Of a stretch of 13,878 nt of DNA, positions 2,774-3,350 are shown in pieces; positions within the stretch are counted from its first letter, which is position 1; the number at the start of each line of letters is the position of its first letter. The stretch is from a virus (Duplodnaviria; Heunggongvirae; Uroviricota; Caudoviricetes), in the IMG/VR virus record IMGVR_UViG_2529293142_000032, positions 1-13,878 of that record. One strand, 5' to 3'. Below the pieces are notes generated by a model. It saw only the letters and a list, made by a program, of their open reading frames with translations. It searched no databases and was not told where the DNA came from. Position numbers and translations under genes: made by a program.

Positions 2774-2782
2774 GGCCGTCTG

Positions 2783-2810
2783 TTTGTCACGGTCTGTCAC
2801 TCTCTGTCAC
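2783..2810. repeat. Three phased direct repeats of TGTCAC at exactly 10-bp spacing
   Basis: TGTCAC at 2785-2790, 2795-2800 and 2805-2810, immediately after the RHH gene stop codon. Confidence 0.5.
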
Positions 2811-2980
2811 GATATCAGGTGATACGAAAATTTCGTAGGTCTGACTATCTTTGAGATAGTCGGTTCTCCCCTCCGTGGTCATTTTGACCATGGAGCTACC
2901 ACCTTGCCACACAAAAGGGATGGTCATTATAACCATCCCCTTCAAAGCCCCTTTCATGGGGCTACCGACACCAGCACCCC

Positions 2981-3073
2981 GGCTCAATTTTGAGCCGCCT
3001 CTTAATCAACGACTTACCGCCACCAGCTACCATCCTCAAAATTGAGGAGCCATTTAACCAATAACTTACCGCC
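2981..3073. repeat. Imperfect tandem repeat of a ~52-bp unit, each unit containing a short hairpin and a ~20-bp direct repeat
   Basis: GGCTCAATTTTGAGCC (2981-2996) and CCTCAAAATTGAGG (3034-3047). TTAATCAACGACTTACCGCC (3002-3021) matches TTAACCAATAACTTACCGCC (3054-3073) at 17 of 20 positions. Confidence 0.45.
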
Positions 3074-3350
3074 GTAACCGTTCCGGCTTCTTCCACTGGT
3101 AAGTCTTTTTCTCGCTCTCCCGGTACATCTGCACGCGGCGACGATATGACAACAACTCCAGAACTCTGGTTCGTATGTCGCGCATATCCACGCCGTTAAG
3201 CTCAATACCGTCACGGCGCATCACCTCCGCCACCACACGCGCGTAATTTTCGGCTATCACGCTGTCCGGCTGCGTGGCCTCCTGTTTGCCTGCTGGTGGT
3301 CTGATTCCGGCAACACGGCGAATCATTTTGAGCATTTCGGCTTCGGTCAT
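3066..3350 (-). CDS. Hypothetical protein (~94 aa)
   Basis: ORF with a GGAGG Shine-Dalgarno 8 nt upstream of the ATG at 3350. The six-frame track extends it to a GTG at 3356. Confidence 0.5.
   Translation of the reverse strand: MTEAEMLKMIRRVAGIRPPAGKQEATQPDSVIAENYARVVAEVMRRDGIELNGVDMRDIRTRVLELLSYRRRVQMYRESEKKTYQWKKPERLRR

What the first reader, a model, noticed from the sequence alone, without database searches (positions are those of the whole stretch)
2774..3085. Highly structured convergent intergenic region: phased TGTCAC repeats and a duplicated hairpin-plus-repeat unit
Between two convergent genes lie three TGTCAC repeats at exact 10-bp phasing (2785-2810), at least three perfect 6-8-bp stem-loops (2851-2869, 2924-2946, 2947-2965), and a ~52-bp unit present twice. 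Each unit carries a hairpin (GGCTCAATTTTGAGCC / CCTCAAAATTGAGG) followed by a ~20-bp direct repeat (17 of 20 identical), and the second overlaps a stop codon. None of the hairpins is a canonical terminator. This is far more structure than a 3' intergenic region needs. Candidates are a small regulatory RNA (P4 immunity is RNA-based), a recombination or attachment site, or a protein-binding array on one face of the helix.
Basis: seen in the sequence. Interest (0 to 1): 0.55.

Follow-up and report, generated by a model that had tools for sequence, protein, structure and literature searches.

The report
Patchwork repeat flank in phage satellite
The structured gap between two convergent genes of an E. 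coli phage satellite is a recombination patchwork of family-specific non-coding modules (a terminator, tandem palindrome units and a cut-down array of phage-origin-type repeats), not a single RNA gene or attachment site.

Summary
The sequence features are real and far above chance, though three hairpin coordinates are off by 1-8 nt.

The window is a PICI-type phage satellite. The interval is the 3' flank of a conserved 94-aa gene (phrog_1561), assembled from separately inherited modules:
- **Tandem units:** two ~52-nt units, each with an IHF-core consensus overlapping a TAA, a palindrome with covarying arms, and Chi or near-Chi.
- **Terminator:** a minus-strand intrinsic terminator with two accessory hairpins. 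An inverted paralog lies upstream of the gene.
- **Two-hairpin module.**
- **Repeat array:** a 3-copy remnant of a 10-bp-phased GTGAC array, cut at a junction that also truncates the RHH gene.

Relatives carry 3-5 array copies, one array per locus, always in the same orientation. In other viral contigs such arrays lie inside replication-initiator genes in 86 of 120 loci, as lambda ori lies in gene O. I infer (p~0.35) that the satellite array binds a helper phage's initiator.

No support was found for an sRNA or an att site. The full arrangement occurs in only 2 of 5,426 complete E. coli genomes.

The parts
2453..2773 (+). RHH-type ORF, 3'-truncated. Homology to the common 151-aa relatives ends at residue 99 (about window 2749).
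   Evidence: BLASTP against P0128 aligns residues 8-99 only. PGAP marks the identical gene in H1 as partial, missing its C-terminus, at the equivalent of 2480-2749. Homolog lengths range from 70 to 172 aa.
2785..2810 (-). Three GTGAC(A) repeats at exact 10-bp spacing (TGTCAC on the + strand). This is the shortest and truncated version of a family array.
   Evidence: 0 of 200 shuffles. Homologous 3-5-copy arrays occur in 26 of 88 loci, always in the orientation of the 94-aa gene. The conserved 3' flank AAAAGACGG(T) is cut here at GACGG|CC.
2823..2861 (.). Two-hairpin module: TACGAAAATTTCGTA (2823-2837) and GACTATCTTTGAGATAGTC (2843-2861).
   Evidence: Perfect palindromes. The same module occurs alone in other islands, for example next to PerC near clpS in O145:H28 strains, and in IMG/VR relatives.
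2876..2890 (.). Accessory hairpin TGGTCATTTTGACCA that travels with the terminator module.
   Evidence: It is conserved next to the terminator in L004, L005, L018, L020, L023 and L027.
2907..2940 (-). Intrinsic (Rho-independent) terminator of the 94-aa gene. Stem 2917-2924 / 2932-2939, loop 2925-2931, and T-tract TTTTGTGTGG (= 2907-2916).
   Evidence: Sequence. It is the strongest helix in the minus-strand fold. Family members have different but complementary stems and the same TTTT(C)GTGTGG tail.
2946..2963 (.). Hairpin AGCCCCTTTCATGGGGCT between the units and the terminator.
   Evidence: It is present in L002, L004 and L005 at the same place.
2963..3014 (-). Repeat unit U1. It has an IHF-core match AATCAACGACTTA (3004-3016, +), the palindrome GGCTCAATTTTGAGCC (2981-2996) and a near-Chi ACACCAGC (2968-2975).
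   Evidence: nhmmer E=4.6e-14. In L002 and L004 this unit directly follows the gene's stop codon.
3015..3068 (-). Repeat unit U2, overlapping the stop codon. It has a one-mismatch IHF core (3056-3068), the palindrome CCTCAAAATTGAGG (3034-3047) and a perfect Chi on the minus strand (CCACCAGC at 3020-3027) at the U2/U1 joint.
   Evidence: Homology blocks with other genomes end at 3019-3021.
3066..3350 (-). 94-aa gene (phrog_1561, function unknown). It is the conserved gene whose 3' flank the finding covers.
   Evidence: PHROG E=7.7e-49. 983 homologs, nearly all 94-97 aa. AlphaFold2 gives three helices at pLDDT 72 with no fold match.
3459..3519 (+). Inverted paralog of the terminator module (61 nt, 77% complementary to 2879-2939). 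On the + strand it reads hairpin + TTTTGTGTGG, a terminator facing the other way.
   Evidence: (I1). Sequence.

Best explanation
The interval is not one device. It is the recombination-scarred 3' flank of the 94-aa gene of the packaging region of a PICI-type phage satellite. It is built from four kinds of family-specific non-coding module that are inherited separately.

1. **Tandem repeat units.** Two tandem ~52-nt units follow the stop codon. Each has a match to the IHF core consensus that begins on a TAA, a short AT-centred palindrome whose arms covary, and a Chi or near-Chi octamer. Unit number (1 to 3 of this subtype; longer runs of related units elsewhere) changes by recombination at the joints, and in this window the joint is the Chi site. 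These units most likely act at the DNA level as IHF-bent, Chi-bearing, hairpin-prone joints where modules are exchanged. Secondarily they are stable 3'-UTR hairpins. This function is inferred.
2. **Terminator.** A Rho-independent terminator on the minus strand ends the gene's transcript. Its inverted paralog upstream of the gene would stop plus-strand read-through coming from the convergent genes. The structure is shown. The termination activity is inferred.
3. **Two-hairpin module** of unknown role.
4. **GTGAC repeat array.** A three-copy remnant of a 10-bp-phased GTGAC array is bound by a protein on one face of the helix. The same kind of array is embedded in replication-initiator (O-position) genes of lambdoid and many other phages. 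The satellites carry one free-standing, non-coding copy next to three different replicase types. I therefore infer that the array binds the initiator of a helper or resident phage. It would act as a decoy or as a helper-dependent origin (probability about 0.35). In this window the array is cut down by the junction that also truncated the RHH gene, so it may be only partly functional.
For: **Context.**
- The window is 99.7% identical over the query to an island between thiM and rcnR that carries integrase, Icd-like, primase, SSB, ProQ/FinO and PerC genes.

**Mosaicism.**
- Only 2 of 5,426 genomes hold the whole interval.
- Sub-blocks 2823-2865, 2867-2947, 2867-3021, 2956-3021 and 3019-3061 occur separately in 46 genomes.
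- Relatives have 1-3 units after the same stop codon.

**Repeat units.**
- nhmmer finds 25 distinct units.
- The palindrome is 92.5% paired. Three of seven pairs carry compensatory double changes, and the covariation score is 0.342 against 0.120+/-0.027, reached in 0 of 500 shuffles.
- 11 of 35 distinct gene ends have a perfect YAANNNNTTGATW starting on the stop codon, against a per-offset background of 0.0013.
- There are 64 distinct contexts in gene orientation against 35 in the opposite orientation.

**Chi.**
- A perfect Chi sits at 3020-3027.
- The islands carry 0.9-2.1 Chi per kb, and Chi ranks first among the 168 same-composition octamers. The flanking chromosome has 0.09 per kb.

**Terminator.**
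-.

**Array in satellites.**
- 0 of 200 shuffles reproduce the pattern.
- 26 of 88 loci have an array, one per locus, always in gene orientation, with 3-5 copies.
- The core is invariant and the spacers vary.

**Array in other viral contigs.**
- Phased GTGAC arrays were found in at least 120 viral loci.
- 86 of these lie inside an ORF, always antisense to it.
- 63 of the 86 ORFs form one homology component.
- The ORFs match replication-initiation, replisome-organizer and O-like PHROGs.
- In E. coli the gene sits between cro/ydaT and replication protein P of a lambdoid prophage. It is present in 644 of 5,426 genomes.

**No cognate initiator in the satellites.**
- No initiator homolog or remnant is found in the satellites.
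- The arrays accompany a P4-alpha-like primase, a DUF927 protein and a RepA-family helicase.
Against: - No experiment bears on any part.
- The link between satellite arrays and phage initiator arrays rests on the shared 5-bp core, the exact 10-bp phase and the copy number. Outside the core only the A after GTGAC is shared. The upstream flank differs: phage gTC-GTGAC, satellites A-n-(A/C)-GTGAC.
- BLAST finds no similarity between the satellite array module and deposited phage genomes.
- The window copy has no adjacent AT-rich unwinding region.
- That the phage arrays are origins is itself an inference, by analogy with lambda ori in gene O.
- Five of the 25 units are arm hybrids that break one pair, so perfect pairing is not strictly required.
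- IHF-core conservation could partly reflect common descent of the units. Many units of one subfamily deviate by 2-3 positions.
- Chi occurs in both orientations across the island (5 and 7 in the window), so the Chi in the units may simply reflect the island-wide excess.
Confidence: 0.6

Rival explanations
1. The GTGAC array is the cis site of a satellite-encoded protein. Candidates are the 94-aa protein whose stop codon lies 7 nt from the array in many relatives, or a small terminase or AlpA-type protein. The array would serve packaging, excision or autoregulation and would have nothing to do with the helper's replication initiator.
For: The array is always in the same orientation as the 94-aa gene and directly abuts it in at least 17 loci. 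In yejO-type islands it lies a few hundred nt from a lambda-like cos site and a Nu1-like terS. The 94-aa protein is helical with a very basic C-terminus. Flanking bases of the satellite repeats differ from those of the E. coli phage initiator arrays.
Against: The loci were collected through the 94-aa gene, so the co-occurrence is built in. Many loci with that gene have no array within 2.5 kb (62 have enough downstream sequence and 26 have an array). Array-bearing elements have unrelated small-terminase types. The 94-aa protein has no recognisable DNA-binding fold. The array sits between convergent genes or after a stop codon, not at a promoter.
Confidence: 0.25
2. Apart from the terminator, everything in the interval is neutral debris. 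The units, hairpins and array would be scars of repeated illegitimate and homologous recombination at the end of an accreting island, with no present function.
For: The full arrangement exists in 2 of 5,426 genomes. The array and the RHH gene are both truncated at their junction. Hybrid units exist. H1 carries a second, internally deleted copy of the 94-aa gene with its own units. An IS and a frameshifted neighbour gene show that the island is decaying.
Against: Palindromy is kept by compensatory changes. The array core is invariant and its spacers vary at unchanged 10-bp phase across 12 distinct arrays. IHF-consensus positions are kept while the N positions vary. The modules recur in many otherwise different satellites.
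Confidence: 0.25
3. The interval encodes one or more small regulatory RNAs, for example a P4-like RNA immunity factor or an antisense RNA against the convergent genes.
For: There is very strong predicted structure on both strands. A ProQ/FinO-domain protein is encoded in the island. A terminator is available on the minus strand.
Against: No Rfam family matches. No promoter-like site lies in 2774-3085. Hairpins have 0-2-nt centres, and G:T versus A:C mismatches show no strand bias. The content of the interval differs module by module between close relatives, unlike a conserved RNA gene. The structures lie in the 3' UTR of the 94-aa mRNA.
Confidence: 0.05
4. The interval is an attachment or other site-specific recombination site, with the phased repeats acting as arm-type or excisionase (RDF) sites.
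For: Phased direct repeats are typical of excisionase and arm-type sites. In some relatives the array is only about 85 nt from the point where sequences from different integration sites diverge. IHF-consensus sites are present.
Against: In this island the array is about 4.5 kb from the chromosomal junction. In yejO-type islands it lies between terS and the 94-aa gene. The att-proximal repeats of these elements are a different motif (ATAACCCGC / CGGGTTAT) with their own IHF-type site. No copy of the repeat was seen at island boundaries.
Confidence: 0.05

Closest known systems
Origin iterons embedded in a phage initiator gene (lambda ori inside gene O; replisome-organizer genes of other phages)
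   Same: There are three to six direct repeats with a short invariant core in helical phase. The same GTGAC / 10-bp type lies inside O-position initiator genes of E. coli lambdoid prophages and of many other viral contigs.
   Different: The satellite copy is free-standing and non-coding, with no initiator gene in the element. It has only three repeats here and no adjacent AT-rich region. The flanking bases of the repeats differ from the E. coli phage type. Origin activity of the phage arrays is inferred, not shown.
Phage-encoded resistance (Per) of lactococcal phages: a cloned phage origin in trans titrates replication factors (named in PMC3445015 and PMC8965321, neither opened; the mechanism is from my own knowledge)
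   Same: This is the functional analogue of the proposed decoy or piggy-back origin. A phage origin carried on another replicon competes for the phage's initiator and is itself amplified on infection.
   Different: Per was created or observed on plasmids in Gram-positive hosts. Nothing comparable is documented for PICI satellites, and no test was done here.
REP/BIME elements of E. coli, especially the IHF-binding RIP/RIB type (own knowledge)
   Same: These are short extragenic palindromic units, often tandem and often in 3' UTRs just after stop codons. They combine a palindrome with an IHF consensus and vary in copy number.
   Different: The sequences are unrelated. The units here are confined to this satellite family rather than spread over the chromosome. 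They carry Chi and begin on the stop codon. No RAYT-type transposase is involved.
Chi-rich lambdoid phages that lack recombination and anti-RecBCD genes (PMC3784561, found and not opened; PMC12315714, read)
   Same: There is a strong excess of the octamer GCTGGTGG in a mobile element that replicates as concatemers. The unit Chi sites have the 'active' orientation if the terminase side is taken as left.
   Different: The density here is higher, 0.9-2.1 per kb against about 0.54 per kb in phage LLS. Both orientations are used. Satellites are not mentioned in PMC12315714.
EcCICFT073-type cos PICIs (PMC6092414, PMC6739421)
   Same: The island type is the same (int, AlpA-type regulator, primase, PerC). 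Relatives of this island carry two lambda-like cos copies, as described for cos1 and cos2.
   Different: This window has no lambda or P2 cos. Its TerS-like proteins gave no sequence match to any solved structure at E<0.1; I did not check that RppC is in that library. The interval studied is not a cos site.

Membership tests
Intrinsic (Rho-independent) terminator | G+C-rich stem-loop immediately followed by a U/T-rich tract on the transcribed strand | tested here: met
   Minus strand: GGGATGGT / TATAATG / ACCATCCC, then TTTTGTGTGG (2907-2940).
Intrinsic (Rho-independent) terminator | Lies downstream of a gene on the same strand, and the structure is conserved with compensatory changes in relatives | tested here: met
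   It lies 126 nt after the stop of the minus-strand 94-aa gene. Family copies have different complementary stems and the same tail.
Intrinsic (Rho-independent) terminator | Transcripts end there | not testable with these tools
   Needs Term-seq or RNA-seq.
Phage origin iteron array | At least three direct repeats with a conserved core in helical phase | tested here: met
   3 x GTGAC at 10 bp. Relatives have 3-5 copies.
Phage origin iteron array | Cognate initiator encoded in the same element (array within or beside its gene) | tested here: not met
   No initiator homolog in the window or in the satellites.
Phage origin iteron array | Adjacent A+T-rich unwinding region | tested here: not met
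   The window array is flanked by the RHH junction on one side. Relatives have only about 20-45 nt of A+T-rich sequence.
Phage origin iteron array | Initiator binding and initiation of replication | not testable with these tools
   Needs EMSA or ChIP and replication assays.
IHF binding site | Match to WATCAANNNNTTR | tested here: met
   Perfect match at 3004-3016 and a one-mismatch match at 3056-3068. It recurs at the same unit position in relatives.
IHF binding site | IHF binds and bends the DNA | not testable with these tools
   Needs footprinting.
Chi (RecBCD hotspot) | Exact octamer 5'-GCTGGTGG-3' | tested here: met
   Minus strand at 3020-3027. A one-mismatch copy lies at 2968-2975.
REP/BIME | Sequence similarity to REP consensus and chromosome-wide distribution | tested here: not met
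   The interval matches only satellite islands, in 46 of 5,426 genomes. The lack of similarity to REP is judged from memory of the consensus.
Small RNA gene | Own promoter and a discrete conserved transcript or known family | tested here: not met
   No promoter-like site. No Rfam match. Module content is not conserved between relatives.
att site of a tyrosine integrase | Located at the element boundary, with a core repeated at both ends | tested here: not met
   The interval is about 4.5 kb inside the island. The boundary-proximal repeats are a different motif. Core duplication was not searched for exhaustively.
PICI-type phage satellite (the host element) | Integrase, AlpA-type regulator, primase/replicase, no structural or lysis genes, about 10-20 kb | tested here: met
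   H1 annotation and PHROG/Pfam hits. The gene set is as described for E. coli PICIs (PMC6092414, PMC11773190).

The most novel reading that the evidence does not exclude
PICI satellites of enterobacteria carry a free-standing copy of the origin iterons of lambdoid helper phages (phased GTGAC arrays). With it they would capture the helper's O-type initiator, either to be replicated by it or to starve the helper's own origin. They would also use a dedicated IHF-palindrome-Chi repeat family as recombination joints that shuffle their packaging-end modules.
Probability: 0.25. Interest if true: 0.7.

Novelty: new variant of a known kind. Interest (0 to 1): 0.45.

Why it matters
If the array does bind a helper initiator, it would add origin mimicry to the known ways in which satellites exploit or interfere with helper phages. 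The known ways are capsid size redirection, terminase redirection and cos mimicry. Origin mimicry would be directly testable with one protein and one 50-bp DNA.

The repeat units and the extreme Chi density give a concrete sequence basis for the mosaic evolution of these islands.

For this particular window the practical message is more modest. The striking structure is mostly accreted modules plus an ordinary terminator. The array copy here is a truncated one.

Tried and rejected
- **Rfam:** searched at gathering and permissive thresholds, with nothing meaningful.
- **tRNA/tmRNA:** none.
- **Deposited phage genomes:** BLAST of the interval and of the 5-copy array module gave no match.
- **cos site:** no lambda cosN or P2/P4 cos in the window. 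The lambda-like cos found in relatives is absent here, so the interval is not a cos site.
- **RHH protein as partner of the array:** rejected. The gene is confined to this island and is truncated at the junction.
- **P4-alpha-type origin:** rejected. The TGTTCACC iterons lie elsewhere (8949-9170), and the arrays accompany three different replicases.
- **Array as remnant of an initiator gene:** tblastn found only chance-level hits confined to the repeats.
- **Rpp-like packaging redirector:** the neighbouring 136-aa and 177-aa proteins gave no sequence match to any solved structure at E<0.1; I did not check that RppC is in that library.
- **Function of the 94-aa protein:** no Pfam, PDB or fold match.
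- **Strand of hairpin function:** G:T versus A:C counts gave no signal, 20 versus 27.
- **Genome-contig scan:** the scan for the 94-aa gene returned nothing confirmable.
- **Chi orientation relative to DNA ends:** this gave no clean story, because Chi occurs on both strands and the terS-cos segment is inverted between relatives.
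Full report
**Observation.**
- TGTCAC starts at 2785, 2795 and 2805. The three-copy phased pattern is unique in the window and occurred in none of 200 shuffles.
- A 52-nt unit is present twice in tandem (2963-3014 and 3015-3066, 71% identical). The second copy runs into the stop codon of the minus-strand gene.
- The three stem-loop coordinates are off by 1-8 nt. 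The perfect hairpins are at 2823-2837, 2843-2861, 2876-2890, 2917-2939, 2946-2963, 2980-2997 and 3033-3048. That is seven in 226 nt, against roughly one per 400 nt elsewhere in the window.
- Both strands fold much better than shuffled sequence, with z = -5.9 and -6.2.
- One statement is wrong. On the minus strand, 2917-2939 is followed by TTTTGTGTGG and is a canonical intrinsic terminator.

**Context.**
- The window matches (99.7% over the 1.1-kb query) an island between thiM and rcnR of E. coli 2015C-4136CT1. The island carries an integrase, an Icd-like gene, a DUF4222 gene, a P4-alpha-like primase, SSB, a ProQ/FinO-domain protein and two PerC genes. This is the gene set of Gram-negative PICI satellites (PMC6092414, PMC11773190).
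- The finding lies between two genes.
  - One is a 3'-truncated RHH ORF (2453-2773, +). Its homology to the common 151-aa relatives stops at residue 99, and PGAP calls the identical gene partial.
  - The other is a 94-aa gene (3066-3350, -) of PHROG 1561, of unknown function. It has about a thousand close homologs, a three-helix model and no fold match.
- Part of the 1.1-kb query, chiefly this gene, matches in 914 of 5,426 complete E. coli genomes.
- The whole intergenic arrangement occurs in only two genomes. Its sub-blocks occur separately elsewhere: 2823-2865, 2867-2947, 2867-3021, 2956-3021 and 3019-3061.
- The interval is therefore a mosaic.

**Tandem units.**
- Related islands carry one, two or three such units directly after the same stop codon. 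Many IMG/VR relatives carry longer runs of related units.
- Read in the direction of the gene, a unit has three parts:
  - YAANNNNTTGATW, the reverse complement of the IHF core consensus WATCAANNNNTTR, starting on a TAA;
  - then about 8 nt and a palindrome with an A+T centre of 0-2 nt;
  - then GCTGG(TGG), that is Chi or near-Chi.
- In the window, U1 holds the only perfect IHF-core match of the whole 13.9 kb (3004-3016). U2 holds a one-mismatch copy on the stop codon. A perfect Chi (minus strand, 3020-3027) sits at the U2/U1 joint.
- Eleven of 35 distinct gene ends have a perfect IHF core starting on the stop codon, against a per-offset background of 0.0013.
- The motif occurs in 64 distinct contexts in gene orientation against 35 in the opposite one.
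- On 23 distinct units, the palindrome is 92.5% paired and three of seven pairs carry compensatory double changes. The covariation score is 0.342 against 0.120 in shuffles (0 of 500 reached it), and slid registers collapse.
- Five of the 25 nhmmer units are arm hybrids (GCTCAA..TTGCGC), which is evidence of exchange within the palindrome.
- Imperfect stems show no G:T over A:C bias, 20 versus 27. With the near-absence of a loop, this argues for a DNA-level palindrome rather than a strand-specific RNA element.
- Homology with other genomes breaks at 3019-3021, which is the Chi at the joint. The window's duplication is therefore best read as two alternative gene ends joined by recombination. U1 is the end found in L002 and L004, and U2 is the end found in L006.

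**Terminator module.**
- Positions 2867-2962 travel as one block.
- The central hairpin plus TTTTGTGTGG on the minus strand is the terminator of the 94-aa gene. Relatives have different but complementary stems and the same tail, sometimes two in tandem.
- A 61-nt inverted paralog lies upstream of the gene (3459-3519). On the plus strand it again reads hairpin + TTTTGTGTGG.
- I infer that it stops plus-strand read-through from the convergent genes after it has crossed the 94-aa gene in antisense.

**Phased repeats in satellites.**
- On the strand of the 94-aa gene the repeat is GTGAC(A).
- Arrays of 3-5 copies at exactly 10 bp occur in 26 of 88 loci, one per locus and never in the opposite orientation.
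- They occur at three kinds of place:
  - 7 nt after the stop codon;
  - a few hundred nt further downstream, as here;
  - in the non-coding gap between a Nu1-like terS and the 94-aa gene.
- The core is invariant while the spacers vary.
- The conserved 3' flank AAAAGACGG(T) is cut in the window at GACGG|CC. There, about 30 nt of unrelated sequence lead into the truncated RHH gene.
- The arrays accompany three different satellite replicases: a P4-alpha-like primase here, a DUF927 protein in L006 and a RepA-family helicase in L007.
- The island's own P4-type iterons (TGTTCACC, eight copies at 8949-9170) are elsewhere.
- The array is thus not the satellite's own origin and not an RHH operator.

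**Where else such arrays occur.**
- In 86 of them the array lies inside an ORF of at least 100 aa, always on the strand opposite to GTGAC.
- Of these 86 ORFs, 63 form one BLASTP component spanning 47 clusters at 70% identity.
- The ORFs match replication-initiation, replisome-organizer, O-like and DnaD-like PHROGs.
- The common E. coli version has a DnaT-type C-terminal domain. It sits between cro/ydaT and replication protein P in a lambdoid prophage, which is the position of lambda O. It is present in 644 of 5,426 genomes.
- By analogy with lambda, whose origin iterons lie inside O (established knowledge), these arrays are most likely origin iterons.
- The satellites have no initiator homolog and no remnant of one around the array.

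**Mechanism and its limits.**
- Shown:
  - modular composition;
  - conservation patterns;
  - the terminator structure;
  - the association of this array type with phage initiator genes.
- Inferred: the satellite array binds the initiator of a helper or resident lambdoid phage, as a decoy or helper-dependent origin. The lactococcal Per phenotype is the functional precedent (named in PMC3445015, not opened; the mechanism is from my own knowledge). I put this at about 0.35, for these reasons:
  - outside the core the repeat flanks differ from the E. coli phage type;
  - the array module has no BLAST similarity to deposited phages;
  - a satellite-encoded binder, notably the adjacent 94-aa protein, is not excluded.
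- The units are best compared with REP/BIME elements of the IHF-binding type, with Chi added.
- Their role as recombination joints fits three observations: the breakpoints, the hybrids and the island-wide Chi excess. The islands carry 0.9-2.1 Chi per kb, Chi ranks first of 168 same-composition octamers, and the flanking chromosome has 0.09 per kb.
- Chi-rich lambdoid phages are known (PMC3784561, PMC12315714). PMC12315714 does not mention satellites.

**Verdict.**
- The finding is real, but it is a composite of known kinds of element in a new combination and context.
- For this window the array is a truncated copy and the island shows decay: an IS256-family transposase at its edge, a frameshifted TerS-like gene and a truncated RHH gene.
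- The wider family-level observations are more interesting than the window itself. These are the free-standing origin-type arrays, the IHF-palindrome-Chi units and the Chi density.

Noticed in passing
window 8949-9170: Eight copies of the P4-type iteron TGTTCACC/GGTGAACA lie in both orientations just downstream of the primase gene (9184-11016, -). One pair forms the arms of an 11-bp perfect hairpin at 9088-9116. This is probably the island's own origin.
   Followed up: partly
whole window; L001 9856-27458; L006 7000-18376; L007 3900-12389: Chi (GCTGGTGG) is extremely dense in these satellites: 12 in 13.9 kb here, and 0.9-2.1 per kb across islands. It occurs on both strands and is the top-ranked of the 168 same-composition octamers. 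The flanking chromosome has 0.09 per kb. The density is higher than reported for Chi-rich lambdoid phages.
   Followed up: partly
window 2879-2939 and 3459-3519: A 61-nt inverted repeat (77% complementary) brackets the 94-aa gene. Each arm is a terminator module facing outward.
   Followed up: partly
L006 10460-11511; L007 7593-8590; L008-L087 at about 1525-1607 and 2445-2351: Relatives carry two inverted lambda-like cos copies (cosQ GGGTCCT, cosN GGGCGGC...) flanking a Nu1-like terS. One copy lies about 55 nt upstream of the 94-aa gene. The terS segment is inverted between L006 and L007, as expected from recombination between the inverted cos copies. The window has no such cos.
   Followed up: partly
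window 2419-2451: Two overlapping perfect palindromes (GTATAACAGCGTTATAC and TATACAGTGGTATGCTGTATA) lie immediately upstream of the RHH ORF. This is a likely operator for that protein.
   Followed up: no
window 1-1281: An IS256-family (Mutator-type) transposase gene (1-1209, -) replaces the sequence found at this place in the near-identical island of H1. Homology with H1 starts at 1282.
   Followed up: partly
window 3897-4429: The HTH/TerS-like gene that is intact in H1 (534 nt, 177 aa) is 533 nt here and is split into two ORFs (3897-4220 and 4241-4429). That is, it is frameshifted.
   Followed up: partly
L001 12415-12672 and 12100-12500: H1 carries a second, internally deleted copy of the 94-aa gene with its own downstream units and terminator-like hairpin, about 2.3 kb from the first. 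This is evidence of tandem accretion of satellite ends.
   Followed up: partly
L001 11060-11250 and 11440-11640: There is a run of nine CGGGTTAT repeats with inverted ATAACCCGC copies (probable integrase arm-type sites; also seen next to comM in L027). Separately there is a cluster of TGGGACAT repeats in both orientations.
   Followed up: no
L002 1812-5010: In strain tcmA_3 the 94-aa gene plus one unit and an att-arm-like stretch sit between a complete terL and a second, N-terminally truncated terL followed by portal and protease genes. This looks like an insertion or recombination event inside a packaging module.
   Followed up: no
window 2774-3066 versus H2 (NZ_CP141863): The intergenic interval is 99.7% identical to H2, while the surrounding 1 kb is only 92.8% identical. 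The non-coding block was therefore exchanged more recently than its flanking genes.
   Followed up: no
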